A program made the translations under genes and the position numbers. 64,000 nucleotides of DNA from a virus. This document shows, one piece after another, positions 24,266-63,947 of the stretch; position 1 is the first letter of the stretch, and each line of letters opens with the position of its first letter. The notes beneath the pieces were generated by a model, which had not been told where the DNA came from, did no database searches, and saw nothing but the letters and a program-made list of their open reading frames with translations. The stretch lies in the IMG/VR virus record IMGVR_UViG_3300045988_173642, positions 32,001 through 96,000 of that record, one strand, 5' to 3'.

Positions 24266-24871
24266 TTAAAATGGAAGGTCGTCTTCGTTGAAGTTAGAAC
24301 CAAAGGCATAGGCATCATTCTGTTCGGCCGACGGCACATAAGCCGTTGCTGCGCCTGCCGTCTGATAGTTGGGTTGCGGCGTGGTTGACGGCGCTGCCTG
24401 CTGTTGTGGCTGATAGAGCATAGCCAAACGTTTGTTCATTCGACTGCGAAAGGCTTTAAAGAGATGTGAGGTCTCATCCTGCACGTTCTGCGTGACGATA
24501 CCTGGATCGCGATCTTTGTTCTGCTGCTTCACCTGCTCAACGAGACCGGGAGCCTTGGCAGCAATGTACTTGACATAGTCCGTTGAATAAGACATCTGCA
24601 CTTCGTGTGTCGGCACATTCACGTTTGCATCGCCGCGTTCCTGCGCCGAGCAGCGGACGGCCTTCTTATAGTTTTCGTTGAGTGGCCAGATGTTCACACG
24701 TAATCCTGCAATCTGTTTGCTGGGGTCGTTTCGCGAAACAGTCAGTTTGATTTCGTTGAAGTCTACAGGAATACAGACATACGCACGTTGTGGATTCTTC
24801 TGATCTACTCCTGTCATAACCTGTGCACCATTCAAGGCCAACAGGTCAATACTGCCATTGTAACTTGCCAT
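24266..24871 (-). CDS. ssDNA-binding-protein-like protein with SSB-type acidic C-terminal tip
   Basis: 201 aa. A Q/P/A-rich flexible linker is followed by the terminal ...NFNEDDLPF (compare E. coli SSB ...DDDIPF). Sits next to the clamp and primase-helicase genes. Confidence 0.5.
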   Translation of the reverse strand: MASYNGSIDLLALNGAQVMTGVDQKNPQRAYVCIPVDFNEIKLTVSRNDPSKQIAGLRVNIWPLNENYKKAVRCSAQERGDANVNVPTHEVQMSYSTDYVKYIAAKAPGLVEQVKQQNKDRDPGIVTQNVQDETSHLFKAFRSRMNKRLAMLYQPQQQAAPSTTPQPNYQTAGAATAYVPSAEQNDAYAFGSNFNEDDLPF

Positions 24872-24919
24872 GATTTGTTTGTTTTTTATTTATTGTTGAT
24901 GAATGATTATTTGTCGGTT

Positions 24920-25153
24920 TTAATAGAGCCTACCGCGAGGGTCACTCATGTCGTCCATCGTCTTTACGCGAAACCATTTCTTTGGTCGGTTTTTCTTCTT
25001 ATAGACCGCTCCAAGACTGATATAGTGAGCGCAGGCGAGATGGAAAGGCGAAATACTGCCGCCGAACAACGGCGAACTTTTCTCACGACAACTGTTTTTG
25101 ATTTGGTCGTATGAGATGCAGTTTTCGCATCTTGGGGGGGTATATGTTCGCAT
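24920..25153 (-). CDS. hypothetical small Cys-containing protein
   Basis: 77-aa ORF between the SSB-like and primase-helicase genes. Confidence 0.35.
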   Translation of the reverse strand: MRTYTPPRCENCISYDQIKNSCREKSSPLFGGSISPFHLACAHYISLGAVYKKKNRPKKWFRVKTMDDMSDPRGRLY

Positions 25154-25195
25154 CGTTTTTTTGTTTAAAAATTCTTTCTATAGGTTTTAGGTGCA

Positions 25196-28100: not shown

Positions 28101-28870
28101 CTGCCCCCCATTGCAGGACGGAAGAAACATCCGTATGAGTTTTGCGGGCCAAATTCTTGAGAGGCGAAACAGACGAAGAGCGGATTCCACGGCGTGCCGT
28201 GGATGATTTCGCTGACATGCTGACCATTTCGGATAACGTCTGGCAGTGTGACGCTCAGCAGGGAATAGATGCGAAAGTCTTTGTTGAGCAAATCTGGTGT
28301 GAACGTCCGACCGAAACCGAAACGTGGAAGACCTTTTTCTAACGTCACCTCACATCCAAGCGCCGCCAGTTCTTGCGGAGAGAAATCCATTTTCGGCATA
28401 AACGAGAATGTCTCAATGGTCTGCTGCGCAACGGTGCGGTAATCCATGTTGCCGAATACTTCTGGGAATGCAGCTCGCGTTTCTTCCGTGTCGCCGTAGC
28501 ATTTCAACACCAATGCCTTGCAGATTCTTAGTAAACTTTGCCCGTGCATCAGAAGGTGATGGACGGCGGCATACAGTTCAATGGCACCATAACCTTTTTT
28601 CCCAGTCTTTGTACACATCCACTTCACGGCGCCATGTTGCGCCAGACTGTCACCTTCAACCCCCACTCCATCGTACAAACCGCCACGTTCATTATTATAT
28701 ATGATGAAATGTGGTGTACGCGCCGATCTGCCGTCTGCAGCAGCTTCGTCTTTCTCACAAAAGGGACAGAAACAGGCTGTCTGCCCTTCGACGCGCTGCT
28801 CGTCAGAAGGCCGCACCAATAATGCCAAGTCGATGTTGGCAAGCTGGTTGAGTATCGGGTGATATATCAT
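25196..28870 (-). CDS. primase-helicase fusion (zinc-finger primase-like N-terminus, D5/P4-type P-loop helicase C-terminal half)
   Basis: 1224 aa. CHC2-like motif CFCPFCEKDE...PHF near the N-terminus, Walker A AAGGSGKSVL in the C-terminal half, ends ...EIKEEDLPF. Confidence 0.7.
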   Translation of the reverse strand: MIYHPILNQLANIDLALLVRPSDEQRVEGQTACFCPFCEKDEAAADGRSARTPHFIIYNNERGGLYDGVGVEGDSLAQHGAVKWMCTKTGKKGYGAIELYAAVHHLLMHGQSLLRICKALVLKCYGDTEETRAAFPEVFGNMDYRTVAQQTIETFSFMPKMDFSPQELAALGCEVTLEKGLPRFGFGRTFTPDLLNKDFRIYSLLSVTLPDVIRNGQHVSEIIHGTPWNPLFVCFASQEFGPQNSYGCFFRPAMGGSEPIVFSTAEEHSVRKVSKWLMGDNVFVYAMDHRKSDNTAVHAAINQIEPEEKYTETREEWEENETKDGEPKGTFKRIDVKIPTNEIKARNIVFCRTPEDALSVYYAMRSLRLDKQDGDQHFADYCWYHVAFSIGRRNFWYIERGEWKQEKLDFSAVQYQKMNCFAERVIILYPNDIASQRDCGAIATKFSAIHYAMLPEQFRSRYNQRWKWLFGCSPRSVRDYLLSYNMTDEDNFQFDHDLRLPLYSRLRGARNTEPFEIEYPRDPRSGKPKPPTCKVSPTRLWLFMTAHGYYRMIDTESTDLVGQYIHLDRCFVEYIDAKSIIQAAKILLLEYIEQSWRHNDTEQRLMSDCANMVDKTFTEKSAGGLQSMVINFADAFNAKTEYFYFRNVALRITPDNIRPVSYNDISFFIPSLARKPYDFTMRVFKTPFVITERQEYRDRLEAINKKEAMKNEDGSSVFTYDEIKKLRGELMEWAQTYRWFVDWQGQREQDLWPILRIVRGFSNTLWEREKEAQRNKQPLTEDETAVMNAHFANMLSCIGRLCFRSWEGMKNVAPYLLEDNIADEKQAAGGSGKSVLVNTVVGSAVNVLPVDMKDFMVITDAKFALTDLIVYPGKYRVVHWEDKQKSFPMKYFYNKVTQGTKVEKKFGDPVGLKMEDSPIHVITSNSPLSDDDPSTIGRFPLVSFSDRFSRENQQKRQPERSPAELMKHFDPNPEKLTDTDRNQTIYLCALAVQFLMRYHTFAIAPQGNVRRRQMVQKLTESIVRYFEWFFSRNEVYGVPICTDDMFNEFMRDWADASEGKSKEYSRATFKKKIYDYCENMSITCNPKQLFENESDKQRKCFKLQAWVTQEYFTGREWENDNTIEPKFIRYLQTSKHVFFFYRPGKDVIPKNYRDLKRIAKQYAEQPDPLPYRDDDGKIVTLTDEEKERWENNKMRRQGRRVVMPAATSTTAPTLPEIKEEDLPF

Positions 28871-39730: not shown

Positions 39731-41428
39731 TCATCGCGTGCAGGCAAATCCACCTGCAATCAACGGGAACAAGAAGAAGGGCAAACCAAACAACGACAAG
39801 GCCGCGGAGAGGGCAATAAATGCCAGCACCCAGGTCAGCAATTGACAGAGGATGTTTTTAGGCTTTAACCGCTCGCGCCTGGCCCTTTCCCGTTCTTCGC
39901 GTTCTTCGCGTTCAAATTCTGCGTCTCTCTTCTTAAAGTACTCCTCGTCGTCCACCATAATGTAATGGCGCTTTGGTTGACGTTTTTTAGGTACATCAAA
40001 CATGGCTTTCAGCCGTTCTAATTCGGCCTCGTATTCTGGCGTGCCTTCTTGGTCGACGACGGCACGTTCAAGGGCGATAACTTGTTGTTCGTCTACGGCT
40101 TCATCCGCCGCAGGCGAATCCGTAGTTACCGCAGGCGCATCCGCCGTTATTTCAAGGGCGGTAACTTGTTCCGCCGTAGGCGCATCTTCCATTATGGCAG
40201 GCGCATCCGCCACATTCTCCTGCACTTGTTCTGGCTTTTGAATCTCTGAGACGACCGATTCTTCCACCCTTCCATCTACACACACAATCACGTCACCGTG
40301 CAGACTCACTTCAATCTGGCATCCAGGACTCAATCTCTTCGACATAAAAGAGCGTTCACTGCCGCAGTTGGCATGGGCAAAACGGTGCCCATTCATTTCC
40401 ACTTCGTCAAAGTCGGCCACATAAGTGACCTTACCCGTCTTTTCGCCAATGGTGGTATGATACCAACGGTAAATGGTTACGGCCTTGTGTATCGGGCGAA
40501 ATTTAAACGCGCAGTTGAATTTCGCATCATGATTTGTGCAGCCAATGCGGTCATAAACCGCGTAATCATCAAACTTAAATACCAGTCCATCGGTCGGCCA
40601 CGGCAACTCGGCACGGCGCGTTTCGGCTTCACACACAATTTGCTCCACCGCCTGCTCCAACTCTGCCATGTTGCCATTGAAATGAAAACCATCCACCATG
40701 CCTGAAATCAAGAACCCAAGGCGCTCCAGTTCACGCATCGCATCGCATTGTGTAGAGTAAGCGTCCGACAGCAAGCGGAAAGGGTGGAACTCCAACAGGC
40801 GACAATCGGCAGCCACGGCTATTTTCTTTGACATGATGCCGTTGCTCGTCACGCGCGGTGATTTCCCAGCCTTGCTATAACGAGAGAAGGTGTCAAGAGA
40901 AATGATCACCTCCCCGCGTACCTCCGTGCGAGGTGTGTCGCGCCAGGCTTCCACATATCCAGGCACGCCCTGCACGTGGCGAATGTGCGCCAAACAGTCG
41001 TTGCCCATCAACTCTTTTCCGTGGCCGTAGGTAGCTTCAGCAAGATGCCCATTAATATATACAAGTGCCACCGTTTCGCCGTCAAATTTCCATTCGACAT
41101 CGATAAAGACATCTTCAAGACGTGCAGCCGTCTGCTGCGCTTTAAGGTATTTCACCATGTCTGCCGCGGTATGCACTTTCTTCATAGATAGGCAGGGCGT
41201 GCGGCGTGCCACGGTGCGTTTCCCGTTCCCGTTCTCGCTATAGCACGTCTGCGTCGGCGAATCGGCCAACACGTCCTCCGGGTGCTTGTCCTCATATTCC
41301 TGCAAGGCAAAATAAAGCGCATCATACGCTTCGTCGCTGATTTCCGGCGCATTCAGCGTAAAATATAGGTAATCGTGCTTTTTAACCTGGTCAACGGCAG
41401 CACAATAGTCTTTCTGTGTCTCAATCAT
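39731..41428 (-). CDS. NAD-dependent DNA ligase-like protein (Ia + adenylation + OB) with acidic repeat linker and hydrophobic C-terminal tail
   Basis: N-terminus ...YLYFTLNAPEISDEAYDALYFALQEYEDKHPE...DSPTQ, KxDG motif EWKFDG. No Zn/HhH/BRCT-like part. C-terminus ILCQLLTWVLAFIALSAALSLFGLPFFLFPLIAGGF. Confidence 0.6.
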   Translation of the reverse strand: MIETQKDYCAAVDQVKKHDYLYFTLNAPEISDEAYDALYFALQEYEDKHPEDVLADSPTQTCYSENGNGKRTVARRTPCLSMKKVHTAADMVKYLKAQQTAARLEDVFIDVEWKFDGETVALVYINGHLAEATYGHGKELMGNDCLAHIRHVQGVPGYVEAWRDTPRTEVRGEVIISLDTFSRYSKAGKSPRVTSNGIMSKKIAVAADCRLLEFHPFRLLSDAYSTQCDAMRELERLGFLISGMVDGFHFNGNMAELEQAVEQIVCEAETRRAELPWPTDGLVFKFDDYAVYDRIGCTNHDAKFNCAFKFRPIHKAVTIYRWYHTTIGEKTGKVTYVADFDEVEMNGHRFAHANCGSERSFMSKRLSPGCQIEVSLHGDVIVCVDGRVEESVVSEIQKPEQVQENVADAPAIMEDAPTAEQVTALEITADAPAVTTDSPAADEAVDEQQVIALERAVVDQEGTPEYEAELERLKAMFDVPKKRQPKRHYIMVDDEEYFKKRDAEFEREEREERERARRERLKPKNILCQLLTWVLAFIALSAALSLFGLPFFLFPLIAGGFACTR

Positions 41429-54194: not shown

Positions 54195-57100
54195 TTAGAT
54201 TTGCAATTGGAAATCGTAAGAGGCTCCATCGTCTTTCTGCTTCCACGTGAGTTTTCCAGTCTTGTCTTGTCGGCCAGAGGTGAAGTGATAGAGGCGTTCA
54301 AAATAGGCGACATAGTCGGGCGTTGTGCCCATGTCTGGCGTGATGATGGTGGTGTCAGTGGGGTGTACCCCATTGTTGACGGCTGCATACCATCCGTCTG
54401 GAATCAATTCGCCCGTCGGCAAGTCTTGCGCCAGTTGGGCGTTTTGGTAATAAAGACCAAGCTGCTCAGGCGGCGTGTTGGAACTCGTGCCGCCATACCA
54501 ATAGACCACGGCGGTGTCGGTCTTCGTCTGTTTTGGGAAAAACTGATAATAGGGTAGGGCATCTGGGTTGCCAATGTAAGCCACGGCCAACCAAACGTCA
54601 TAGGCATTGTTGACGCTGATGATTTTCAAGCGCGAGATGGGAAAATAGGCCGCAGTGGTGGTGATTTTGTCAAGGCCGTTGGGGCCGAGATTATACATCT
54701 TCTGTCCGTCTTTACTGTAGAACTCCAAGATAGCACAACCGTCGGCATCTACGCCCACTTTGATATTTGGGAAAGCCAACGAGCCAAACATCTCTACCAC
54801 GCCATCATGCACCTCTACGTGGCTGTCGTTGCCGTCAATGCGCATATTGCCGTTGATGACGCTGAATTTATTGCCCGACCAGATGTCGCCCTGGCGATTG
54901 ACGCGCATAACGGCATCGGCAGGTGTTGCCCCACCAAACCAAAGCGGATATTCCATGTCTGTGCCGCCGCCAAAAGCACCGTAGGGCGTGCCGTTTTCGT
55001 CAGTGATCTGAATTTGACTGACCTGCAAGAATTGGATAAAGGCCGTCATGATGTCGGCGAAGGAGGTGCGCAGGGGGCGCAGGTCATTGATAGGTTCCCA
55101 GAAGTCGTTGCCCGTTCCAAAAGGTTTATTCGCTGACTCAGACAGGATGCCATTGTGCGAAGGGCGGGCGAGATACCATTTCGGCGTGCCGCTCTTGAGG
55201 TCAGTCACACTGACTTCGTCGAGATAGCGGTTGCCGTCGGGGGCCGTGGTGTCGCCACTATCGTTGCGATAGAGCACGCCCGCTTCCCATTCTCCGCGAC
55301 GCACTGTCACGCCAGTATATCCGCGTGGGCCTGGGGCACCAGGGGCGCCAGTGTCGCCCTTCGCGCCGTTTTGCCCGTCTTCGCCTTCGCGGTTTTGCGC
55401 GATGGTGGCGGTGGCGGTGGCGGTGCCGTAGTCCGTGACAAGCGTGAAGGTCATGAAAGCATCCTCAGGCGTTGCGCCGTCCACTTCCACGCCCACGAAG
55501 CCTTTCAGCGTGACGTGGTAGGTCAGGCTCTTACCATCGGCGGCAACAACGGCCGTGTACGTCAGTTCAACAGGCGTGGTGGCGTCGCCCGTTCCATAAG
55601 TGGCCTTTCCGCTACGCACATCGAGCGGCTGCGTGCCGGAAAACACTTGTGCCGTGATGTCGAAAGAGATGTCATCGGGGGCGGCCGTATCGTACCAGTC
55701 CGAGATGGCCACACTGATGATGTTCTTATTCAGCACAACGGTCAAGGCCGTGGGGTCGGCAGCATGGAAGGCCACGTTGCTCACGCCATAGGTACCATCG
55801 GAATAAGTGTAGAGCCATTGTTGCCACACCACGCGATTGGAAGGCGAAGGCGTCAGCGGTTCTGTCTGCCATTCGCCTTTGACGTAGGAGAGGTGGTCTT
55901 CAGCAACGCGGATGCCGTCGGGCAGGATTTCCACGGCAGGTGTGGAGAGGAAATAGAGCTGCTGCGTCACGATGGAGGGAACGCGGTCGAACTGGTCGAC
56001 CATGCCCCACATATAGATGTTGCCCGTGGCTATACCTTCGCCCTCCAGTTCTTTGAGCGCTTCGACAAACTCCTTCTTCTCTTTGTCCCAAACACGCTGC
56101 AACATTGTGAAGCCGTTGAGCCAGCCGATGATGAGCTGCATGTTGTCTTGCGTGTACGTCCAATTGGTCATGCCGGCCAAGTGCAGCTGATAAGTCGTCG
56201 TGGTCAAGCAAGAGCGTTGGCGCGTGCTGTCGGTCTCATTGGCATAGCAGGCAAAGTGCATCGCTGGCTGCGGATGTGATTCATCCGTCCATCGGTTGCG
56301 GTCTTCCGCAGGGAGGTCGGCACAGGTGGCGGCACGCAGTTCATAGCGGAAGAACTGGTTGAGGGCTGGCGTGCCATCCGCTGCCGTCTGCTCCTTAATT
56401 GGGGCAGGCAACGTGGCTGGCGTATAAATTTCTTTTACGCGAAAATAGATGGTCGTGAAGCCTGCGAAATGGAAGTTGCCATCGTGAGGGTCAGAGGTGG
56501 AGAGGTCGTTGCGGCGGTTGGTGAAATGAAACACACCCTGGCATTTGTCGTTGACGGCCACGGCACCCACTTCCCCCGTTTCCAATTTCAATTGCACCAC
56601 GCCTTCGAGCGAAGTAAATCCGAGCGCGGAGAGCGCTTCATCGGCACCCGTCCACACCTGCTGGATGATACCGCCGCCCTGCGTCTGCCATTTATTCCCA
56701 ACTGTGATGGTCGTGCGGTTGAAACGCAGTTCGGGCACCTCCAGGAATGACCTTGCAACGATGCCTTCAAATTCAGCATTGCCGTAGAAGTCGACCTTCG
56801 CGCCTTCAACGCCTTTGTTGAACGTACCGACCGTCAAATCGCCATGCAACGTTGTCGGTCGTCGTTTCTCTGGCGTTCCAACCGTCAGAGCGCCCTCCAC
56901 GAGTGCATCCCCGTGGATGACCGTGTTGCCGAAGATGTCGGCCGCGCCGTTGACCTTCAGGTCGTGCATGGCGAGGTTGAAGGGCGTTTCGTCGTCGTGG
57001 CGCTTCGAGAGCGCATTGTCGTCCATGAGCTTCGGCGTGACGATTTTCGTGGCATCGTCTAAGGGGGTGTCGGCATCCCCGATGCCCGTTATCTCGCCCT

Positions 57101-57722
57101 GCTGTCCTTCAAACGTGATGCGGCCGCCGGAAACAATCTTCAGCGTGCTAACGAAGAGGTCGCGGAACACCGTGCCTGCCTTCATCGTGAGGTCTTTGAG
57201 GAACGTCAAAGTTTGGTCGAAAACATCATAGCGATACCAGTCTGTTTCTGCTGGCCCCGCGTTGATGGCTTCATCCGAAGAAAGGTAGCCCGACACGATG
57301 CGCTGCCGCCAGACGCGCTTCTCTGTGCCGTTTTCGCCAGAGGAGGAGAGAATGCCTTGCAGGAAGATATAGTAATACTCCTCTGAGCCTATTTGCTGCT
57401 CTTCGGCGTTCCGTCCGTAGATGTCAATTTCCTCAGAGGGGAACACGATGTTAGCAGCGTTGCCAACGGATTCTGTGCGCGGAATGGCGGCATAGACATA
57501 TTTTTCTGTGTGTGTGTTGAACACTGTCGGAGAGGCTTGCAGTCGCCAGCGGCGGTAATTATGCCCGGCATCATAGTCGATGATGCCTTTGACGTACACA
57601 AGAATTTGCGCATTACCGACACACGAGGCCTGCACGTAGTCGGGCATGGCCAGGGCGTTGCGTTCGATGAAGAGCGCGTCGGGCGAAATCCAATAATCTG
57701 TGGTCGTTGCTTTCGTTGTCAT
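54195..57722 (-). CDS. tail fibre / baseplate-distal protein with collagen-like Gly-X-Y stretch
   Basis: 1175 aa, beta-rich, with GEDGQNGAKGDTGAPGAPGPRGYTG. Confidence 0.7.
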   Translation of the reverse strand: MTTKATTTDYWISPDALFIERNALAMPDYVQASCVGNAQILVYVKGIIDYDAGHNYRRWRLQASPTVFNTHTEKYVYAAIPRTESVGNAANIVFPSEEIDIYGRNAEEQQIGSEEYYYIFLQGILSSSGENGTEKRVWRQRIVSGYLSSDEAINAGPAETDWYRYDVFDQTLTFLKDLTMKAGTVFRDLFVSTLKIVSGGRITFEGQQGEITGIGDADTPLDDATKIVTPKLMDDNALSKRHDDETPFNLAMHDLKVNGAADIFGNTVIHGDALVEGALTVGTPEKRRPTTLHGDLTVGTFNKGVEGAKVDFYGNAEFEGIVARSFLEVPELRFNRTTITVGNKWQTQGGGIIQQVWTGADEALSALGFTSLEGVVQLKLETGEVGAVAVNDKCQGVFHFTNRRNDLSTSDPHDGNFHFAGFTTIYFRVKEIYTPATLPAPIKEQTAADGTPALNQFFRYELRAATCADLPAEDRNRWTDESHPQPAMHFACYANETDSTRQRSCLTTTTYQLHLAGMTNWTYTQDNMQLIIGWLNGFTMLQRVWDKEKKEFVEALKELEGEGIATGNIYMWGMVDQFDRVPSIVTQQLYFLSTPAVEILPDGIRVAEDHLSYVKGEWQTEPLTPSPSNRVVWQQWLYTYSDGTYGVSNVAFHAADPTALTVVLNKNIISVAISDWYDTAAPDDISFDITAQVFSGTQPLDVRSGKATYGTGDATTPVELTYTAVVAADGKSLTYHVTLKGFVGVEVDGATPEDAFMTFTLVTDYGTATATATIAQNREGEDGQNGAKGDTGAPGAPGPRGYTGVTVRRGEWEAGVLYRNDSGDTTAPDGNRYLDEVSVTDLKSGTPKWYLARPSHNGILSESANKPFGTGNDFWEPINDLRPLRTSFADIMTAFIQFLQVSQIQITDENGTPYGAFGGGTDMEYPLWFGGATPADAVMRVNRQGDIWSGNKFSVINGNMRIDGNDSHVEVHDGVVEMFGSLAFPNIKVGVDADGCAILEFYSKDGQKMYNLGPNGLDKITTTAAYFPISRLKIISVNNAYDVWLAVAYIGNPDALPYYQFFPKQTKTDTAVVYWYGGTSSNTPPEQLGLYYQNAQLAQDLPTGELIPDGWYAAVNNGVHPTDTTIITPDMGTTPDYVAYFERLYHFTSGRQDKTGKLTWKQKDDGASYDFQLQI

Positions 57723-58018
57723 GAATGCTTGGAGATTTTAAGAATGAGACGCGAAAACGGCACCATCATGAGATAGGCCCAAGAAAGGCGGCTGGGATAT
57801 TGAAGATCGGCATCCGCCGTGTGTGAGCGCAAGATGTGAAGGCGATAGAGCGCGTTGTGGGCCAGCCATTCCGCTTTCAGCGAGCGCAGACTGCGCTTCC
57901 AAACATTAGAATTAGGAAAGAGCGAGCGCACGTAACGCAATTTGTTGTCCATTTCCGCTTCGCTGTACTTATAGGATTGATGAATGTGGAGATTGTTGTC
58001 AGTGATGGTGTAAATCAT
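57719..58018 (-). CDS. hypothetical protein
   Basis: 99-aa ORF with a 4-nt overlap with the fibre gene. Confidence 0.45.
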   Translation of the reverse strand: MIYTITDNNLHIHQSYKYSEAEMDNKLRYVRSLFPNSNVWKRSLRSLKAEWLAHNALYRLHILRSHTADADLQYPSRLSWAYLMMVPFSRLILKISKHS

Positions 58019-58045
58019 GTTTTCTGAGATTTTTAAACGATAAAA

Positions 58046-58090
58046 AAACGTTCTACTTTTGTCTGTTGTCAGAACAAAGGTAGAACGTTT
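58046..58090 (-). terminator. intrinsic terminator closing the DGR operon
   Basis: Stem AAACGTTCTAC / GTAGAACGTTT, followed on the minus strand by TTTTTTTATCG. It begins at the stop codon of 58090-58611. Confidence 0.6.
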
Positions 58091-58611
58091 TAAGGTTTTT
58101 CATCGGACATTCCCATGTGTCGCGACAAAGAAAGGTGGTGCTGGAGGATGCGGATGTTATGGCGCAAATCGTCGAGCGTGGCGTGCTCTACGTCAATCAT
58201 TGACACCAACACACAAACGTCATGCTCCGCTTCGGTGCGTGAATGATGGGCGTCTTGAGCGGGCGTGGGGGAAGGAGGAGAGGGGAGTGGTTGCACTGAT
58301 GTTCCAGTCTGTTCCGCCAGTTCTTCCGACAACGCAAGCACATAATGTTTACCAGAATCATCCGTGCTGATTTCCACTTCCGGATGCGCCTTCTTCAATC
58401 GTCGCAAAACGCCATCAATGGCGGAGCAGGGGATGCCAAGCTGATGAACAGTGTGTCCAGCAAGCGGAACGGCGCGGATGCGGTAGCCTGTGATGTTCTG
58501 CATGAACGCAGCGCAGGCGTTGAAAGCATGGAAAAACAATCCTTGCTGAATGAGATAGAGCCTGCGGCCATCCGTCTGTTCCTGCTCCGCAATGGCTTCA
58601 GCCACTTTCAT
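58090..58611 (-). CDS. MutS domain I-like protein (DGR-linked accessory ORF)
   Basis: RLYLIQQGLFFHAFNACAAFMQNITGYRIRAV...HQLGIPCSAIDGVLRRLKK aligns by eye with E. coli MutS [32 protein letters not shown]...PMAGIPYHAVENYLAKLVN. ATGA overlap with the upstream ORF. Confidence 0.45.
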   Translation of the reverse strand: MKVAEAIAEQEQTDGRRLYLIQQGLFFHAFNACAAFMQNITGYRIRAVPLAGHTVHQLGIPCSAIDGVLRRLKKAHPEVEISTDDSGKHYVLALSEELAEQTGTSVQPLPSPPSPTPAQDAHHSRTEAEHDVCVLVSMIDVEHATLDDLRHNIRILQHHLSLSRHMGMSDEKP

Positions 58612-59066
58612 GCCTCTTCTATCTTGAAGGCCGGTTTGGCCAATGCCTTGCAGCGTTCGGCAAAGGCTGTCACTTGCTCCAGGTCGGTTGTGTCACCAAG
58701 CAATGCCTTGCGGTGAGCGCACAACTCTTCTGCATAAGAATATCGAGCGCCAATGAGATAAGCGGCCAAGGTATGATAATCTGAGATGCGGTACACGGCC
58801 ACAAGTTCTTTGATGAATGCCGCGTCAAGACTGTCAAATAAGCCCTGCTGATAAATGGTCTGCAGCAATGTCTGTGCCGTCATTCGTCCTTCATGCGAAA
58901 TGGCCAGTGTGGTGCAACGAACGCGCTGCTCTCCTGCATCATTCTTATAAGATGAAGGGGAGAGGTTGATGGTCAAGAACTCCGTGTTCTTGGAATAAGA
59001 GCGAACGATGTGGCGGGGATTTTCCGTCAAATCTTCGCATTGGCGAAGGGGAATTTTTTCTCTCAT
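58608..59066 (-). CDS. hypothetical protein (DGR-linked accessory ORF)
   Basis: 152-aa ORF with 4-nt ATGA overlaps with both the RT stop and the next ORF start. Confidence 0.5.
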   Translation of the reverse strand: MREKIPLRQCEDLTENPRHIVRSYSKNTEFLTINLSPSSYKNDAGEQRVRCTTLAISHEGRMTAQTLLQTIYQQGLFDSLDAAFIKELVAVYRISDYHTLAAYLIGARYSYAEELCAHRKALLGDTTDLEQVTAFAERCKALAKPAFKIEEA

Positions 59067-60538
59067 AAAATAGATGTTTGAATCATTTTACATTTGTTTC
59101 GCAAACGAATCCGCTCAAAATGGCCATGAATGTAAAAGAACTCGTAGAAGACATGTTCAAAAATAGATAGTGTCGTTTTACGTAAGAGGTAAGACCTTTT
59201 ATTCTTGAAAAAACCGAGGTACGAGTTGATGACTTGTTCCATGCGACGAAGGTCGCACAAGGATATAATGGATTTTTCGCGCAACATTTGGTTGAATCCA
59301 AAAACGCGCTCACGGAAACGAGCAACGGTGCGGCTGGACAGGTATATACGATAGTAACGGATGTAGGCTCCAACAAACATAACACCATGTGAAGCTAATT
59401 GAAAATGATATTTGGTGACGTGAAGCGTAATACCAAGTTCAGACGACAGAAACAAGCGAGCGTCAATGATGAAGGCTTTTAAAGCAGACTTGCTGATGCA
59501 AATGACAACAAAATCATCTACAAAACGCGTGTAGTAGACCTCAAATCCACGGAGTTTGAACCATTGAATTACGAAATCATCAAAGAATGACATAAGGAAA
59601 TTCACGAACACTTGCGTTGTGATATTCCCAATTGGCATTCCGAAGGCAACATCGCTGCCGAAAAGCGACTTATGGCGCTCAATATGCTTGTGCCATTCAT
59701 CTGGCGATGTGTTGAACACACAATTTTGCTCGGGACAATGAAACACGATGGTTTTGGATGCGGCGAACAATTGTTTCAAGTATTGGCCTTTGTATTGTTC
59801 GCGGATGAACGGTTCCAGTTTTGACCATAATATACGCTTGTCTATCGACATGAAGAACGAGACGATGTCGCCCTTAAACACCCATGCAGGGCGGCTATAA
59901 TTGCAAGTTGCCTTCTTGATGTTGTCATATACGGCCTTCTGAGCCGCAAGGGTGCCAAATCCTTTTCGGCAATTGAATGACACATTACCTTGTTCAATAA
60001 AACGCCGCTCAAAATACGGATTGAGAAAAAGAATAATGAAATGATGAACGATGCGATCGCGAAAGCAAGCCGCAAAAACCTCTCTATATTTCGGGTATTT
60101 CACAAGGAAACACGTGCTGACGCCTGGCTTATATGCTCCAGTATATAATTCATGTGCCAATGCTGGCAAATCATGTTCGGCTATCTCGCAATAGTCGATA
60201 CATGCACGGCTGGTGCGTTTACGCTGGCAACAATCGTCAAAAGCAAAAAGCACAAGATCAAGAAAGTCGGTAGGAATATCAAAAGCGACGACAGGACGAA
60301 CCACAAACCCGTTGTACTTATTGTTGTTGTTGATGTTGCCATTGCCGAAGTTGCTGTTCCAACTGTTGTTGCGGTTATACTCCGTGGCGCTCCATCGGTT
60401 GGCCTGAACGTTTACTTTGGGCATTGAAATAGCATAACCACTCCAGACATTTTCATACGAACCATTGCCGTATGAACATAAATCTAAATAGGTATGCCCA
60501 CCTTTTAACAGTCCTCTCGGCTCTCTGTCACAATTCAT
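59063..60538 (-). CDS. DGR reverse transcriptase (long ORF; its first ~95 codons read through the TR; possible true start GTG at 60253)
   Basis: RT motifs FRDRIVHHF, GFGT, GDIVSFFMSID, FGMPIGNITTQVFVN, YTRFVDDFVV. The TR is immediately 5'. Confidence 0.85.
   Translation of the reverse strand: MNCDREPRGLLKGGHTYLDLCSYGNGSYENVWSGYAISMPKVNVQANRWSATEYNRNNSWNSNFGNGNINNNNKYNGFVVRPVVAFDIPTDFLDLVLFAFDDCCQRKRTSRACIDYCEIAEHDLPALAHELYTGAYKPGVSTCFLVKYPKYREVFAACFRDRIVHHFIILFLNPYFERRFIEQGNVSFNCRKGFGTLAAQKAVYDNIKKATCNYSRPAWVFKGDIVSFFMSIDKRILWSKLEPFIREQYKGQYLKQLFAASKTIVFHCPEQNCVFNTSPDEWHKHIERHKSLFGSDVAFGMPIGNITTQVFVNFLMSFFDDFVIQWFKLRGFEVYYTRFVDDFVVICISKSALKAFIIDARLFLSSELGITLHVTKYHFQLASHGVMFVGAYIRYYRIYLSSRTVARFRERVFGFNQMLREKSIISLCDLRRMEQVINSYLGFFKNKRSYLLRKTTLSIFEHVFYEFFYIHGHFERIRLRNKCKMIQTSIL
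60281..60407 (-). repeat. DGR template repeat (TR)
   Basis: 127 bp, 114/127 identical to 61179-61305. All 13 mismatches are at TR adenines on the coding strand. Confidence 0.9.
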
Positions 60539-60562: not shown

Positions 60563-61024
60563 TTAAGCACTTACAGAATTACTACCTTGCGAAAATCTGA
60601 CCAGAGAAGATGCGCGCCATGCTGAAACCTGTAAGGAACAGGAAGCGACGAGCGACTTAATCTTCTTAAAATCATCATTACTGATGCAGCCCAATGTCTT
60701 CATGATGCAAATAATAGATTTAATAGCATCTATATGAGCTGCAGCAATAGTCAGCTGCGGCACTCGTGAATACATATCAGCAAATGCAATAGACAAACTC
60801 ACCAATAAACCCGCGCATTCTGAATACATCGGATTGACCACAGGACGATATTTGACTGGACACGTCTTGTTGATTTGCGCCAAGACGAGATACAATTGCT
60901 GAGAATCGCGAAACACCTGCTGCTGATGGATGGTCCGAACTTTCTCTTTCTTGAGCTTTTTACTTCTTTCTTTTTGTTCTGTTGTTATTTGTATATATTG
61001 TGGTTCTTTGTTGTCATTTACCAT
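60563..61024 (-). CDS. avd: Avd-like DGR accessory protein
   Basis: 153-aa predicted helical, basic ORF positioned between VR and TR, as in characterised DGRs. Confidence 0.55.
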   Translation of the reverse strand: MVNDNKEPQYIQITTEQKERSKKLKKEKVRTIHQQQVFRDSQQLYLVLAQINKTCPVKYRPVVNPMYSECAGLLVSLSIAFADMYSRVPQLTIAAAHIDAIKSIICIMKTLGCISNDDFKKIKSLVASCSLQVSAWRASSLVRFSQGSNSVSA

Positions 61025-61163: not shown

Positions 61164-63947
61164 TTAAAGGATGAAGGGAAAAGCGACGACAGGACGAACC
61201 ACAAACCCGCTGTACTTATAGCTGTTGTAGACGTTGCCATCGCCGAAGTAGCTGCGCCAACTGTAGTAGCGGTCATACTCCGTGGCGCTCCATCGGTGGG
61301 CCTGACGAGGATTGCGCACCGGACAGCCCAGATTGGCGTCTTTCGCGCGTTTCTGCAAGTTTGCATAGAAAGGGCGGCGAGCATCCGTCGGCTCATGCGG
61401 TCGCAGTTCGTTGCCTTCGTCGGAAAAATCCGCCGTTGGCGTACCAGTGTCAGATGGCGTCAGCGCACGGCTATTGCGGAAGAAAATATACAGACGGAAC
61501 ATATCACCGCTGCCATGCAGATACCATTTCCCTTTTTCAAACCACGGCGAAAGGCCGTCAATGGGCTTGCCGCCATTGCTCGGCTCGAACAGGGAACAAG
61601 CGTAGGCGGCAGGATAGGCTAACTGACGCCATCGTTTGTCGCCGCCGATATTTCCAAGCGCCACGCAGAGATCGGCCAGCTCTTCCATCGTTTCTGGAAT
61701 GATATGGTCGCGTACTGCGGGAAGGTAGTCGAAGATGGTGTGACCATCGCTATCTGTCAACAGTCCTTCCCCGACATATTGTGTCAGAATACGATTGGCA
61801 TGTGCCACGATTGAGGCGGTGTCCTTTTTGCCATCCCATCTGTTGGGCGCAGTATTACCTTCATAGACCTTGAATCCGTCACTTTCGTTATCATCATAAG
61901 CCTGCAAGTCTTTGATGTAATACGTTTTTTCGCCTTTTTCGTCCACCATACCAACATCTGTACAATCATTACAAGCGGGGATATTCGTCAAATCGTCATC
62001 AGAGACGGATAATGCTTCAGCAATCACCTTGCGTTCGTCGGGTGTAAATCCCAATTCACCAGTGCCTTGCGGATAAATACCCCATGAAAACTCACTGATG
62101 GAGTTAGCCTTATCTGAGGACGTAATGGTCAGTTCTTCCACGTTTTCGATCAACACTTCATACAGTGTTTTGCCCGAATTATATTGCGCCGAGATTTCTT
62201 CATCCTGCAAATATTCGTTCAAAAGATTCGTTGGTAGGTCGGCATAAGGCGTCACCTTATATACCCAGCCAATAACCTTTTTACCCGGATATAACACGGA
62301 ATCAAACTCACCATTATAGTAAGCGAAATCGCCTAATTTCGGAATGCGGTTGAAAAGTTTCAACACCACTGATGTGCTAAGCGATTTTCCTCCAATCAAG
62401 GTAGCTGTAACAGTCAACGTCGCAGTTGGGTTATTACTTTCCTCGCCGACCGATGGCGCATGCAACACGCCAGTCTCTGCATCCACCGTCACATTAAAAT
62501 CATTCTCAGAGATAGACCACCTTAAATCCGTGAAGTTGTTGGCCATCGTTGGCAACACGGAACATTGGTAAGGATAATCTCCTGGTTCGGCAATAACAAA
62601 GCGTTGCGTAATGATATTCAAGCCTGTCACGCTGCGCAAAGAATAAGTGATATACAAATCATTATTCTCAGAGTCGATTTCGCCGAACTTGCGCAACAAG
62701 GCGAGTTTCAATTCTGCATCCACATTCTGCCCTTCTGTCACGGCAATTCGTCCATACAAAGAGCAATATAGAATCCCAGTTATATAGAATAATACGCTTG
62801 GCGCAACATCTGTCCAATCAATTCCATCTATGCGCAACGTGCTCAACTTTGCGCCAGCCTCACTACATCCACGCACCAAAGAGCGCGTGTCAAAACCGCA
62901 ATTGAGGGCGGTGATCGAAGTTAAACGAGCGTAGCCATCCAGCGTGAGCGTCTGTAACTGCGGCATATCGCGCACTTCAAGTTGTGAGAGCTCCGCACCG
63001 AAGCGAGCCACGGTAAGTTGTGGTGAGGACGGCATACGCACCTGCCCGTATTTCGTTCCGCGAAGGTCGAGTGTTTGCAGTCGTGAAGCCTTAGAGAGGT
63101 TGAATGTTCCGCTGGATGTGCTAACACCATTCAGAGACAGACGCTGCAAATTGGCGGCATCTACATCTATCTGCTTCGGCGCAAACGCACTGCTACCTGC
63201 TTTAGGCTCAGCAATAAACTCCGTCATTCGGCGTCCCTGAATGGTGAAGTTATTATTGCCAACCACCATGTTACCCACGTTACCGATGGAACGATAATAG
63301 TTAGTGGCAGCAAGTCCGACTGATGAGTCGCCAGGAATCGGTGTGGAAGCAGGATTTACTGTGAAGGCATAGTGTCGCCCCGGTATCATGCGGAAATGCG
63401 GGTTGATGAGCGCACGGTCGCGCACGCCACAGGGATAGAGGTACTGATGAGGAACAAGGTCAAATGTGTATTCGCCTCCCGTGCGCCCAGAACCAGGCGT
63501 GAACTGCAAACCAGCGCTGGCGTCCACCAATCCAGTAGAACCAGTGTTCACACCACTTGAGAAGTCACCCCATGCCGCATACGAACAGACAAGAGCCAGT
63601 CGGCGTGTCATATACTGAATCTCGCTCTCCAACTGGTCGCCAATGCCCTGCGTGACGGCGAGAATACCACGCGCCTGGTTGCCGTAACTCTCATAGCCCC
63701 ACGATGCGGGCCAGTCGTATCGGATGCGCTGCTGTTCCGCCCATGCTACCTCGGCAAAGTACTTTTGAACTGAGAAGAAATACTTGTGTATACAACCGTA
63801 TGGCGTTTGGCGTTGTGTCGTTGTAAGGCCGTCTATATTCTCATTCGCCCCAACCAACGTACACATGGCCGTCAACACTTCACGCATATTGGCCGGCAAT
63901 GCCGTTTGGTCGAGCGTTTCCCATGCCGCCTCCATGACATTGAACAA
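61164..63947 (-). CDS. DGR target protein, probable receptor-binding tail fibre (LRR-like repeats, Ig-like segment, C-terminal variable lectin-fold-type domain)
   Basis: 927 aa. LRR-like LQRLSLNGV...LQTLDLRGT...LSQLEVRDMPQLQTLTLDG...LSTLRIDG. Ig-like TVDAETGVLHAP...LTVTATLIGGKS. VR within the last 50 codons. Confidence 0.8.
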   Translation of the reverse strand: MFNVMEAAWETLDQTALPANMREVLTAMCTLVGANENIDGLTTTQRQTPYGCIHKYFFSVQKYFAEVAWAEQQRIRYDWPASWGYESYGNQARGILAVTQGIGDQLESEIQYMTRRLALVCSYAAWGDFSSGVNTGSTGLVDASAGLQFTPGSGRTGGEYTFDLVPHQYLYPCGVRDRALINPHFRMIPGRHYAFTVNPASTPIPGDSSVGLAATNYYRSIGNVGNMVVGNNNFTIQGRRMTEFIAEPKAGSSAFAPKQIDVDAANLQRLSLNGVSTSSGTFNLSKASRLQTLDLRGTKYGQVRMPSSPQLTVARFGAELSQLEVRDMPQLQTLTLDGYARLTSITALNCGFDTRSLVRGCSEAGAKLSTLRIDGIDWTDVAPSVLFYITGILYCSLYGRIAVTEGQNVDAELKLALLRKFGEIDSENNDLYITYSLRSVTGLNIITQRFVIAEPGDYPYQCSVLPTMANNFTDLRWSISENDFNVTVDAETGVLHAPSVGEESNNPTATLTVTATLIGGKSLSTSVVLKLFNRIPKLGDFAYYNGEFDSVLYPGKKVIGWVYKVTPYADLPTNLLNEYLQDEEISAQYNSGKTLYEVLIENVEELTITSSDKANSISEFSWGIYPQGTGELGFTPDERKVIAEALSVSDDDLTNIPACNDCTDVGMVDEKGEKTYYIKDLQAYDDNESDGFKVYEGNTAPNRWDGKKDTASIVAHANRILTQYVGEGLLTDSDGHTIFDYLPAVRDHIIPETMEELADLCVALGNIGGDKRWRQLAYPAAYACSLFEPSNGGKPIDGLSPWFEKGKWYLHGSGDMFRLYIFFRNSRALTPSDTGTPTADFSDEGNELRPHEPTDARRPFYANLQKRAKDANLGCPVRNPRQAHRWSATEYDRYYSWRSYFGDGNVYNSYKYSGFVVRPVVAFPFIL
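61179..61305 (-). repeat. DGR variable repeat (VR) at the 3' end of the target gene
   Basis: See TR. Encodes ...HRWSATEYDRYYSWRSYFGDGNVYNSYKYSGFVVRPVVAF versus the TR-encoded ...NRWSATEYNRNNSWNSNFGNGNINNNNKYNGFVVRPVVAF. Confidence 0.9.

What the first reader, a model, noticed from the sequence alone, without database searches (positions are those of the whole stretch)
58046..59066. Two extra ORFs translationally coupled to the DGR RT; one looks like a stand-alone MutS mismatch-binding domain I
The RT stop overlaps the start of a 152-aa ORF (ATGA, 59063-59066). That ORF's stop overlaps the start of a 173-aa ORF (ATGA, 58608-58611). A strong hairpin plus T-tract (58046-58090) follows only after the second ORF, so the operon appears to be target-avd-TR-RT-orf152-orf173. 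By eye, orf173 residues ~17-85 align with E. coli MutS domain I: G-x-F-[FY]-x-x-F...A, then the GIP...A[IV]...L..L block (QLGIPCSAIDGVLRRLK versus MAGIPYHAVENYLAKLV). The mismatch-stacking Phe position is kept, but the Glu of the F-x-E motif is His. DGR homing must create A-mismatch-rich cDNA:VR heteroduplexes, so a mismatch-binding module hard-wired to the RT could shield or channel these intermediates away from host MMR. From memory, large DGR surveys list a MutS-like accessory class, but I cannot verify that here, and I know of no mechanism assigned to it.
Basis: partly seen in the sequence, partly recalled or inferred. Interest (0 to 1): 0.8.

Follow-up and report, generated by a model that had tools for sequence, protein, structure and literature searches.

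The report
Mini-MutS accessory gene in phage DGR
A phage hypermutation cassette (a diversity-generating retroelement, DGR) carries two small genes coupled to its reverse transcriptase: one is the already-known "MutS-like" accessory protein, shown here to be a cut-down MutS (mismatch-binding domain plus C-terminal dimerisation domain), and the other is an uncharacterised partner gene that travels with the cassette.

Summary
On the minus strand the order is target, avd, TR, RT, orf152, orf173. Both junctions are ATGA overlaps, and a strong hairpin with a U-tract follows orf173.

- **DGR:** it is genuine. All 13 TR/VR differences fall at TR adenines.
- **orf173:** it belongs to the known MSL (MutS-like) class of DGR accessory proteins (Wu et al. 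2018). A GenBank protein in the same 90%-identity cluster is already labelled "MutS domain I". Homology to MutS domain I is supported three ways. 38 of 45 family members hit Pfam MutS_I. The family profile's best PDB hit is Taq MutS. The top 22 Foldseek hits of a confident AlphaFold model are all MutS.
- **Mismatch motif:** the stacking Phe is invariant (45/45). The Glu of Phe-X-Glu is never kept (His 38, Arg 5, Lys 1, Gln 1).
- **New here:** the C-terminal helix-loop-helix is homologous to the MutS C-terminal oligomerisation domain (hhalign probability 95%, far above shuffled controls). The tetramer residues D835 and R840 are not kept. MSL is therefore MutS without domains II-V.
- **orf152:** no detectable family or fold match. 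It always follows the RT and is absent from DGR-less relatives.
- **MSL distribution:** it is optional, present in 4 of 9 RT clusters.

The anti-mismatch-repair role is plausible but untested.

The parts
61164..63947 (-). DGR target gene (927 aa, LRR-containing tail-fibre-like protein). Its C-terminal Lcl_C/C-type-lectin-like end holds the variable repeat (VR, 61179-61305).
   Evidence: ORF. Weak Pfam LRR_4 and Lcl_C hits. VR defined against TR.
60563..61024 (-). avd (accessory variability determinant), 153 aa, pI 9.6.
   Evidence: PHROG 3206 'Avd protein of DGR' at E 1.4e-4 and Pfam bAvd at E 0.016. pI.
60281..60407 (-). Template repeat (TR). It lies inside the 5' end of the long RT ORF.
   Evidence: 127-nt direct repeat, 90% identical to VR. 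All 13 mismatches are at TR adenines.
59063..60538 (-). DGR reverse transcriptase ORF. The true start is probably downstream of TR.
   Evidence: Pfam RVT_1 at 3.5e-12 and PHROG 1423 at 8.5e-60.
58608..59066 (-). orf152: a cassette-specific gene of unknown function, translationally coupled to the RT by an ATGA overlap.
   Evidence: AF2 pLDDT 92.6, pTM 0.85. No Pfam, PHROG or PDB-sequence match. No PDB fold match. It lies directly after the RT in every related locus that has upstream sequence. It is absent from DGR-less relatives.
58303..58611 (-). orf173 (MSL) residues 1-103: MutS domain I-like mismatch-binding domain. The Phe wedge is F26 (58534-58536). His replaces the Glu at H28 (58528-58530).
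58234..58302 (-). orf173 residues 104-126: Pro/Ser-rich linker, predicted disordered.
   Evidence: AF2 pLDDT below 50 for residues 113-123. This stretch is the most variable in the close-homologue alignment.
58102..58233 (-). orf173 residues 127-170: helix-loop-helix homologous, at family level, to the MutS C-terminal dimerisation/tetramerisation domain (E. coli residues about 821-853).
   Evidence: AF2 helices 127-138 and 146-170. hhalign of family against MutS C-termini gives probability 95% and E 2.3e-8, with real score 31.6 against a shuffled maximum of 13.6.
58046..58091 (-). Intrinsic-terminator-like hairpin with a U-tract, closing the cassette.
   Evidence: dG -21.6 kcal/mol, z -5.3. 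Equivalent hairpins are present in all MSL-bearing related loci.

Best explanation
The window holds a phage DGR cassette: target, avd, TR, RT, orf152, MSL.

orf173 is a member of the known MSL (MutS-like) class of DGR accessory proteins. Structurally it is a MutS from which the connector, core, clamp and ATPase domains (II-V) are missing. It consists of three parts:
- a complete domain I, with an invariant stacking Phe and a basic or His residue in place of the Glu of Phe-X-Glu;
- a flexible Pro/Ser-rich linker;
- a C-terminal helix-loop-helix homologous to the MutS C-terminal oligomerisation domain, which keeps the helix-capping and core positions but lacks the tetramer-interface residues D835 and R840.

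It is made together with the RT and orf152 by translational coupling.

Inferred mechanism: MSL dimerises through its C-terminal domain and uses its two domain I modules to bind the mismatch-dense cDNA:VR heteroduplex formed during mutagenic retrohoming. It has no ATPase, clamp or connector/ATPase surfaces to form a sliding clamp and load MutL, so it cannot license repair. It would instead occlude the intermediate from host MutS, so that the adenine-mutagenised strand is not reverted or rejected.

Loss of the Glu is expected to lower mismatch specificity, because in E. coli MutS a Glu38-to-Gln substitution abolishes discrimination between matched and mismatched duplexes. Tighter general DNA binding is my own inference.

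orf152 is a second, cassette-bound partner with no recognisable fold. Its role (RT or MSL cofactor, or assembly factor for the variable protein) is open.

Shown here: gene structure, DGR authenticity, both homologies, residue patterns and synteny. Inferred: dimerisation, heteroduplex binding and MMR evasion.
For: **Identity and architecture**
- ORFs and overlaps.
- Genuine DGR with A-only TR/VR differences.
- Domain I homology by member-wise Pfam (38/45, best 9e-7), profile against PDB (Taq MutS, E 0.0095), hhalign (E 2.9e-4), and AF2 (pLDDT 86.8) followed by Foldseek (top 22 hits all MutS, best E 3.3e-4).
- Phe is 45/45 and Glu is 0/45.
- C-terminal domain homology: BLASTP of member P0012 against E. 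coli MutS 821-853 gives 42% identity, E 7.5e-5. The only NCBIfam hit of that fragment is TIGR01070 mutS1, at positions 809-839 of 840, E 0.005. A MutS C-terminal HMM built from 79 proteobacterial MutS sequences hits MSL C-termini, and picks an MSL as the best of 776 decoy ORFs. hhalign gives probability 95%, E 2.3e-8 over 35 columns end to end, with score 31.6 against 200 column shuffles of mean 7.1 and maximum 13.6.
- D835 and R840 equivalents are not kept.

**DGR linkage**
- MSL subfamilies at 24-30% identity lie next to bAvd and RT.
- The literature defines MSL as a DGR accessory, and three DGR RTs carry a weak MutS_I motif in their C-terminal extensions.

**Functional plausibility**
- Host mutS deletion raises retrohoming 5-10 fold in a Bacteroides DGR that lacks Msl.
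- Engineered DGR systems in E. coli add a dominant-negative MutL or delete mutS.
- Glu38-to-Gln abolishes mismatch discrimination by MutS.
- D835R abolishes tetramers but not dimers.
Against: - No experiment or computation here shows that MSL binds DNA, dimerises or affects MMR.
- orf173 alone is below the Pfam MutS_I threshold (12.8 against 20.6 bits).
- Its own C-terminus gives no direct signal against MutS (score -1.2), and the conserved Thr-Pro is Thr-Leu in this protein. The C-terminal claim for this particular protein therefore rests on the family alignment and the AF2 helix-loop-helix.
- In MutS, mismatch binding also needs the clamp domains of both subunits, so an isolated domain I may bind weakly.
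- MSL is dispensable in this phage lineage: 5 of 9 RT clusters lack it.
- The two constitutively active Bacteroides DGRs in the literature lack Msl.
- A published BPP-1 result quoted by Wu et al. found mutS not required for retrohoming.
Confidence: 0.55

Rival explanations
1. MSL acts on the host MutS protein rather than on DNA. Its C-terminal helix-loop-helix pairs with the C-terminal domain of host MutS. This would either cap MutS dimers and block the tetramer-dependent functions, or tether a domain I to MutS and misdirect it.
For: The C-terminal domain is homologous to the MutS oligomerisation domain. In E. coli that domain is critical for tetramerisation and for MMR and anti-recombination (abstract). 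Loss of the D835/R840-type tetramer residues in MSL is what a capping subunit would look like.
Against: Domain I, with an invariant Phe wedge (45/45), is the best-conserved part of the family, which argues that DNA contact is selected. The MutS sequences of the likely hosts (Bacteroidota) were not obtained, so interface compatibility is untested. About a third of full-length family representatives lack a recognisable C-terminal motif.
Confidence: 0.2
2. MSL works earlier in retrohoming, independently of mismatch repair. It would act as a nucleic-acid-binding subunit of the RT complex, for example holding the RNA:cDNA hybrid, the cDNA 3' end or the target junction. The MutS domain I fold would be reused simply as a DNA-kinking or wedge module.
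For: There is tight translational coupling to the RT. Some DGR RTs carry a weak MutS_I motif fused at their C-terminus. The Glu needed for mismatch discrimination is never kept, so mismatch recognition as such may not be the selected function.
Against: MSL is optional among closely related cassettes that keep RT, avd and orf152. Per my recollection of Handa et al. 2018, which was not retrieved here, bRT-Avd alone suffices for adenine-mutagenic cDNA synthesis in the BPP-1 system. Retention of a MutS-type oligomerisation domain is not explained.
Confidence: 0.15
3. orf152 is not a retrohoming factor at all. It would be a chaperone or assembly factor for the large variable tail-fibre-like target protein, or another structural-module gene that merely rides in the same insertion unit.
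For: The cassette is embedded in a tail-fibre module and is tightly packed with orf99 and a 1175-aa fibre gene. orf152 has no nucleic-acid-binding signature and most family members are acidic, with pI 4.2-5.5. The unit that comes and goes with it also contains the target gene. The weak fold hits are to uncharacterised phage proteins.
Against: It always sits immediately after the RT, overlapping its stop codon in 11 of 13 loci, and not next to the target gene. It is followed directly by MSL when MSL is present. In L095 the orf152-MSL pair is kept although the downstream gene is different. It is absent from relatives that keep orf99 and the fibre gene.
Confidence: 0.3

Closest known systems
MSL (MutS-like) DGR accessory proteins, 'Architecture D' DGRs (Wu et al. 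2018, PMC5758913); Msl of the Bacteroides pilus DGRs Bfr/Bth/Bun (bioRxiv 10.1101/2024.11.15.621889)
   Same: It is a small protein (173 aa; class range 112-283) with near-neutral pI (6.0). It is related to the MutS mismatch-recognition domain. It is encoded inside a DGR cassette that also has avd, and none of the seven cassette-region proteins scanned matched an HRDC domain. Homologues from the same HMMER family sit in pilus-type and other DGR cassettes.
   Different: It is located in a roughly 92-kb tailed-phage genome, after an extra gene (orf152), rather than in a bacterial pilus operon. The published descriptions mention only domain I. The C-terminal MutS oligomerisation-domain homology and the family-wide Glu replacement described here were not found in the literature searched.
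Bacterial MutS (MutS1), e.g. E. coli MutS and Thermus aquaticus MutS (PDB 1E3M, 1EWQ)
   Same: The domain I fold and topology match element by element. The stacking Phe is conserved, as is the G-[IF]-P motif (E. coli G70-I71-P72). There is a C-terminal helix-loop-helix with the D-x4-T-P-x2-A...L motif, attached by a flexible linker.
   Different: It lacks domains II-V (connector, core/levers, clamp, ABC ATPase, HTH). The Glu of Phe-X-Glu is replaced by His, Arg, Lys or Gln. The tetramer-interface residues D835, R840 and Y847 are not kept. No beta-clamp-binding motif was detected in the linker.
Engineered MMR suppression in synthetic DGR and recombineering systems (dominant-negative MutL E32K, or mutS deletion)
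   Same: The proposed purpose is the same: to let a mismatch-dense heteroduplex escape MMR so that the mutagenised strand is retained.
   Different: The engineered systems disable MMR globally. MSL would be a natural, cassette-encoded factor. Whether its action would be confined to the retrohoming intermediate is speculation.
CH1 (conserved hypothetical 1) DGR accessory class (Wu et al. 2018), as a candidate identity for orf152
   Same: It is a small protein (family 142-172 aa against 160-169). Most orf152-family members are acidic (pI 4.2-5.5 against 4.7). There are no identifiable motifs. It flanks a DGR RT.
   Different: CH1 is reported only in DGRs that lack avd, HRDC and MSL, and with a much smaller RT. 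This cassette has avd and MSL. The window's own orf152 has pI 6.4.

Membership tests
Diversity-generating retroelement (DGR) | Reverse transcriptase gene, plus a TR/VR repeat pair whose differences fall at TR adenines, with VR at the 3' end of a target gene. | tested here: met
   RVT_1 at 3.5e-12 and PHROG 1423 at 8.5e-60. TR 60281-60407 against VR 61179-61305, with 13 of 13 differences at TR adenines. An Avd match is also present.
MSL (MutS-like) DGR accessory class | Small protein (112-283 aa) of roughly neutral pI, encoded within a DGR cassette. | tested here: met
   173 aa, pI 5.97. It lies two genes downstream of the RT, with overlapping start and stop codons.
MSL (MutS-like) DGR accessory class | Detectable homology to MutS. 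| tested here: met
   A protein in the same 90% cluster is named 'MutS domain I' in GenBank (DAU56234.1).
MSL (MutS-like) DGR accessory class | Co-occurs with avd and not with HRDC. | tested here: met
   avd is at 60563-61024. There is no HRDC hit on any of the seven cassette-region proteins scanned.
MutS domain I (Pfam PF01624) | Score at or above the Pfam gathering threshold (20.6 bits). | tested here: not met
   orf173 scores 12.8 bits, E 0.14. The relationship is recovered only at family level (38 of 45 members at E <= 1, best 9e-7).
MutS domain I (Pfam PF01624) | Domain I fold. | tested here: met
   The AF2 N-terminal domain has pLDDT above 93. The top 22 Foldseek PDB hits are all MutS, with probability 1.00 and best E 3.3e-4.
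MutS domain I (Pfam PF01624) | Phe-X-Glu mismatch-recognition motif. | tested here: not met
   Phe is kept in 45 of 45 members. Glu is never kept: His 38, Arg 5, Lys 1, Gln 1. It is His28 in orf173.
MutS C-terminal dimerisation/tetramerisation domain (E. coli 801-853) | Sequence-profile homology to the extreme C-terminus of MutS. | tested here: met
   At family level, hhalign gives probability 95%, E 2.3e-8, with score 31.6 against a shuffled maximum of 13.6. Member P0012 gives BLASTP E 7.5e-5 and TIGR01070 E 0.005 at positions 809-839 of 840. For orf173 alone there is no direct signal, so this protein taken singly is inconclusive.
MutS C-terminal dimerisation/tetramerisation domain (E. coli 801-853) | Tetramer-interface residues (D835, R840). 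| tested here: not met
   The D835 equivalent is Asp in 1 of 19 MSL sequences, against 73 of 77 in MutS. The R840 equivalent is Lys in 1 of 19 and hydrophobic in 17 of 19, against Arg/Lys in 76 of 77 in MutS.
MutS C-terminal dimerisation/tetramerisation domain (E. coli 801-853) | Self-association (dimer or tetramer formation). | not testable with these tools
   This needs multimer modelling or biochemistry. Only a monomer model was available.
Canonical MutS mismatch-repair ATPase | Domains II-V, including the ABC ATPase with Walker motifs. | tested here: not met
   The protein is 173 aa. Only domain I and the C-terminal motif align to MutS. There are no MutS_II to MutS_V hits.
CH1 DGR accessory class (for orf152) | 160-169 aa, acidic (pI about 4.7), found in DGRs without avd, HRDC or MSL. 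| tested here: not met
   orf152 is 152 aa with pI 6.4, in a cassette that has avd and MSL. Other family members are acidic, with pI 4.2-5.5.
CH1 DGR accessory class (for orf152) | Sequence homology to CH1 proteins. | not testable with these tools
   The supplementary sequences of Wu et al. are not held, and no CH1 record was reachable in the collections.

The most novel reading that the evidence does not exclude
MSL is a natural, cassette-encoded anti-mismatch-repair factor built by deleting the whole signalling body of MutS. A dimer of mismatch-binding heads, held together by the MutS dimerisation domain, would sit on the cDNA:VR heteroduplex or cap host MutS. This would selectively blind MMR and heteroduplex rejection to DGR intermediates. 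orf152 would be a previously unrecognised DGR accessory protein with a new fold that works with the RT and MSL.
Probability: 0.3. Interest if true: 0.7.

Novelty: new member of a known kind. Interest (0 to 1): 0.45.

Why it matters
How DGR cDNA replaces the variable region, and how its dense mismatches survive host mismatch repair, is still unresolved. MSL is the one DGR accessory whose ancestry points directly at that step, yet it has no assigned mechanism.

The domain dissection here turns a label into testable hypotheses. MSL has domain I with a Phe wedge but no Glu, plus the MutS dimerisation domain without the tetramer residues. The two hypotheses are occlusion of the heteroduplex and capture of host MutS, and specific point mutants follow from them.

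This phage lineage also offers a natural comparison. Otherwise syntenic cassettes occur with and without MSL, and one DGR-less relative keeps an MSL relic. A second, unannotated gene (orf152) is a candidate new cassette component. For DGR-based directed-evolution tools, a compact cassette-encoded MMR blocker, if that is what MSL is, would be preferable to disabling MMR genome-wide.

Tried and rejected
1. Direct sequence searches of orf173, or of its close-homologue profile, against PDB gave only noise (NrdH, TIRAP, acylphosphatase). The MutS signal appeared only with the 45-member family profile.
2. Phage GenBank records hold no relative by megablast or tblastn.
3. The C-terminal motif profile did not hit MutS in PDB by hmmsearch. 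Its top hit was the flagellar P-ring protein, E 0.036. Against E. coli MutS alone it aligned at the right place (838-852) but only at E 0.06. Nine of ten C-terminal fragments gave no MutS match against NCBIfam; two of them gave weak, unrelated matches. Profile-profile comparison with shuffled controls was needed.
4. The whole 45-member alignment was too diverse for locus scanning, so subfamily alignments were used.
5. For orf152, Pfam, PHROG, PDB-sequence and PDB-fold searches all came back empty. The viral fold library gave only marginal hits to uncharacterised phage proteins, with TM 0.3-0.5.
6. The idea that orf152 belongs to the downstream tail module (orf99 plus the 1175-aa fibre) was tested by searching from orf99. 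Seven relatives keep orf99 and the fibre but have no RT, avd, target or orf152. That reading was rejected, although a role as a chaperone for the target protein remains open.
7. A beta-clamp-binding motif in the MSL linker was sought and not found.
8. Rfam and tRNA scans of the window found nothing.
9. The supplementary sequences of Wu et al., needed to compare orf152 with CH1 and PAG1-4, are not held.
Full report
**1. The observation**

The minus strand of 54-64 kb carries a compact gene string:
- a 927-aa gene (61164-63947);
- a 153-aa gene (60563-61024);
- a 491-aa ORF with a reverse-transcriptase domain (59063-60538);
- orf152 (58608-59066);
- orf173 (58090-58611);
- a 99-aa ORF (57719-58018);
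- a 1175-aa gene (54195-57722).

The 66 nt after orf173 fold into a long hairpin followed by seven U. The energy is -21.6 kcal/mol, with z = -5.3 against shuffles. The consensus terminator scan missed it because that scan allows loops of only 3-8 nt.

The cassette is a genuine DGR. The RT matches RVT_1 (3.5e-12) and the PHROG reverse-transcriptase family (8.5e-60). The 153-aa protein matches Avd. A 127-nt direct repeat links 60281-60407 (TR) to the 3' end of the 927-aa gene (VR, 61179-61305), and all 13 differences are at TR adenines.

**2. What orf173 is**

Taken alone, orf173 only grazes Pfam MutS_I (E 0.14, 12.8 bits, below the 20.6-bit threshold). The register is full-length, though: residues 16-82 align to profile positions 16-83.

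The word-indexed search found only relatives at 82-93% identity. An exhaustive HMMER search of 1.84 billion representatives found 43 proteins at E below 1e-3. All but one are 72-348 aa; the exception is a 4975-aa protein matched only in short stretches. The small proteins share the N-terminal 85 or so residues.

Five independent lines support the homology:
- 38 of 45 family members match MutS_I, best E 9e-7.
- The family profile's best hit among all PDB sequences is Thermus aquaticus MutS residues 30-91 (E 0.0095). It aligns G-l-F-Y-H-A-Y with G-D-F-Y-E-C-F.
- hhalign against E. coli MutS gives E 2.9e-4 for orf173 17-82 against MutS 27-93.
- An AlphaFold2 model built on the family alignment is confident (mean pLDDT 86.8, above 93 across residues 1-100). 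Its 22 best Foldseek matches in the PDB are all MutS proteins (best E 3.3e-4, probability 1.00).
- A GenBank protein in the same 90%-identity cluster (DAU56234.1, Caudoviricetes sp.) is already named 'MutS domain I'.

The domain I assignment is therefore secure at family level.

The stacking Phe (F26 = E. coli Phe36) is invariant in 45 of 45 sequences. The Glu38 position is never Glu: it is His in 38, Arg in 5, Lys in 1 and Gln in 1. In MutS, Glu38 hydrogen-bonds the mismatched base, and replacing it with Gln abolishes discrimination between matched and mismatched duplexes (review PMC3848065).

**3. It is a known class**

Wu et al. 2018 (PMC5758913) defined MSL ('MutS-like') as one of four DGR accessory classes. 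It occurs in 16 of 372 DGRs, is 112-283 aa with pI about 7.2, and is always accompanied by avd. They also noted three DGR RTs with a weak MutS_I motif in their C-terminal extensions.

[quoted passage not shown] It also shows that deleting host mutS raises retrohoming 5-10 fold, in an all-or-nothing manner, in a DGR that lacks Msl.

No paper in the library assigns a mechanism to MSL. The core finding is a new member of a known kind.

**4. What is added here: a second MutS-derived domain**

Beyond domain I, the family alignment showed a conserved C-terminal motif, roughly I-x-x-F-D-L-x-x-S-T-P-x-x-A-x-x-F-I-x-x-L-Q. It is present in about 22 of about 31 full-length representatives. It resembles the last 30 residues of E. 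coli MutS ([25 protein letters not shown]; sequence taken from NC_000913).

Early tests were mixed. The motif profile did not find MutS in the PDB. It aligned to E. coli MutS 838-852 only at E 0.06.

Later tests were stronger:
- Family member P0012 aligns by BLASTP to MutS 821-853 at 42% identity, E 7.5e-5.
- Its C-terminal fragment has a single hit among 18,950 NCBIfam models: TIGR01070 (mutS1), positions 809-839 of 840, E 0.005.
- I collected 80 proteobacterial MutS C-termini. Their HMM hits the C-termini of P0012 (E 5e-4) and P0013 (E 0.013). It ranks an MSL as the best of 776 decoy ORFs.
- Profile-profile alignment of 19 MSL C-termini against 79 MutS C-termini gives probability 95%, E 2.3e-8, over 35 columns end to end.
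- With 200 column-shuffled controls the score distribution has mean 7.1, sd 1.7 and maximum 13.6, against 31.6 for the real alignment. The reversed alignment scores 7.1.

In orf173 this region is predicted as helix 127-138, loop, helix 146-170. It sits after a disordered Pro/Ser-rich linker. orf173 taken singly gives no direct signal, and its Thr-Pro is Thr-Leu.

In E. coli this domain (residues 801-853) mediates the dimer-tetramer equilibrium, and D835R abolishes tetramers but not dimers (PMC1636413). MSL keeps D833, T838, P839, A842, I846 and L849. It has lost D835 (1 of 19 against 73 of 77 in MutS), R840 (hydrophobic in 17 of 19, against Arg/Lys in 76 of 77) and Y847.

MSL is thus MutS minus domains II-V: the mismatch-binding head joined to the oligomerisation tail. 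I did not find this stated in the literature searched.

**5. orf152**

orf152 has no Pfam, PHROG, NCBIfam-type or PDB sequence match. Its AF2 model is very confident (pLDDT 92.6, pTM 0.85). The fold is a four-stranded antiparallel sheet followed by five helices. It has no PDB fold match (best E 0.05, TM at most 0.23). It has only marginal similarity to uncharacterised phage proteins.

The family has at least 168 clusters at 90% identity, all unannotated.

In every related locus with upstream sequence it lies immediately after the RT. It overlaps the RT stop by 4 nt in 11 of 13 loci examined.

To separate 'DGR gene' from 'tail-module gene' I searched from the downstream orf99. Seven related phage contigs carry orf99 and the fibre gene but no target, avd, RT or orf152. 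orf152 therefore travels with the DGR unit. In L095 a distant orf152-MSL pair is followed by an unrelated gene.

Because the unit also contains the target gene, a role as an assembly factor for the variable protein cannot be excluded.

orf152 does not fit the published CH1 definition, which requires no avd or MSL and pI about 4.7. However, most family members outside the window's clade are acidic (pI 4.2-5.5).

**6. Distribution**

- MSL homologues at 24-30% identity from other subfamilies lie in cassettes with bAvd, RT and Lcl_C or Mfa-type targets.
- One (L009) follows type V pilus genes, with no RT within 5 kb.
- Within the window's phage lineage MSL is optional. It is present in 4 of 9 RT clusters (10% divergence), in two separate groups.
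- A DGR-less relative (L134) keeps a 74-aa MSL fragment just upstream of orf99. This looks like a relic of cassette loss.
- Every MSL-bearing locus has a hairpin with a U-tract after MSL. Several MSL-less loci have only 2-26 nt between orf152 and orf99.

The phage is a roughly 92-kb tailed phage. It has a tape-measure protein, an NAD-dependent ligase and a sliding-clamp-like factor. Contigs of 93-100 kb carry the locus. Records assigned to Alloprevotella hold the same protein.

**7. Mechanism**

Shown: the gene structure, the two homologies, the residue pattern and the cassette linkage.

Inferred: MSL dimerises through its C-terminal domain and binds the mismatch-dense cDNA:VR heteroduplex through its Phe wedges. 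Having no ATPase, clamp or connector/ATPase surfaces for MutL loading, it would block rather than trigger repair.

This fits two published facts. Host MutS suppresses retrohoming. Engineered DGR systems add MMR inhibitors.

The main rival is that the C-terminal domain captures host MutS. A second rival is an MMR-independent role in the RT complex.

The optional nature of MSL, and the activity of Msl-less DGRs, mean it is a modulator and not a core component.

**8. Verdict**

The kind is already known (MSL-type DGR). New elements are the two-domain 'mini-MutS' architecture, the family-wide loss of the Glu, the loss of the tetramer residues, and a cassette-bound gene of unknown fold. Interest is moderate: a specialist would not be surprised by MSL itself, but the dissection makes its role directly testable.

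Noticed in passing
window 60281-60538 (minus strand): The TR lies inside the 5' end of the long RT ORF. As a result the first 90 or so codons of that ORF encode a pseudo-copy of the target's C-terminus (NRWSATEYNRNN...VVRPVVAF), which even gives an Lcl_C hit. Gene callers in related contigs also call this long ORF (482-491 aa). The true RT start is probably downstream of TR.
   Followed up: partly
L134 6465-6689: A related phage lacks target, avd, RT and orf152 but keeps a truncated 74-aa MSL fragment immediately upstream of orf99. This looks like a relic of deletion of the DGR cassette.
   Followed up: partly
L105, L106, L111-L116, L118, L119, L121-L125, L005, L007 against L004, L102-L104, L107-L110, L117, L120: MSL is present or absent between orf152 and orf99 in otherwise syntenic cassettes. 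It is found in 4 of 9 RT clusters, in two separate groups, which implies repeated gain or loss.
   Followed up: yes
L121 and L125 (same 184,950-bp contig, positions 21365-28832 and 113791-121258): The same cassette appears twice, 92.4 kb apart, on one metagenome contig. This is most simply a head-to-tail concatemer assembly, and it suggests a genome length of about 92 kb for this phage group.
   Followed up: no
P0045 (348 aa): One representative fuses the MSL N-terminal domain to HisKA and HATPase_c histidine-kinase domains (Pfam hits). This is an unexpected architecture. It may be a real fusion or an assembly or gene-calling artefact.
   Followed up: no
L009 1-10429: An MSL homologue sits directly after type V pilus genes (Mfa2, FimA, DUF4906 tip pilin). 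It is followed by a 285-aa ORF with no family, a primase-like gene and a serine recombinase. No RT or avd was detected within 5 kb.
   Followed up: partly
window 58018-58091, and equivalent intergenic regions in L004, L104, L107, L110, L117, L120, L121: The hairpin's U-tract lies just upstream of the orf99 start: it abuts the ATG (UUUUUUU(U)AUG) in related loci, and ends about 28 nt upstream in the window. The stem sequences differ between lineages while the structure is kept. One MSL-less locus (L121) has it after orf152.
   Followed up: partly
window 39731-41428, 23063-24250, 12892-14040, 4400-9988: The phage encodes an NAD-dependent DNA ligase, a sliding-clamp-like processivity factor, a PAPS-reductase-like protein and an 1862-aa tape-measure protein. 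No tRNA or Rfam family is present in the window.
   Followed up: no
orf152 homologues P0059, P0064, P0066-P0068: Several orf152-family proteins end in long acidic Asn/Glu/Asp repeat tails (NENENDSEND...). These are absent from the window's copy. Cys51, His118 and Cys139 are invariant across the family.
   Followed up: no
window 54195-57722: The 1175-aa gene downstream of the cassette is a second tail-fibre-like protein with a short collagen-like repeat (residues about 780-804). It stays in place in DGR-less relatives.
   Followed up: partly
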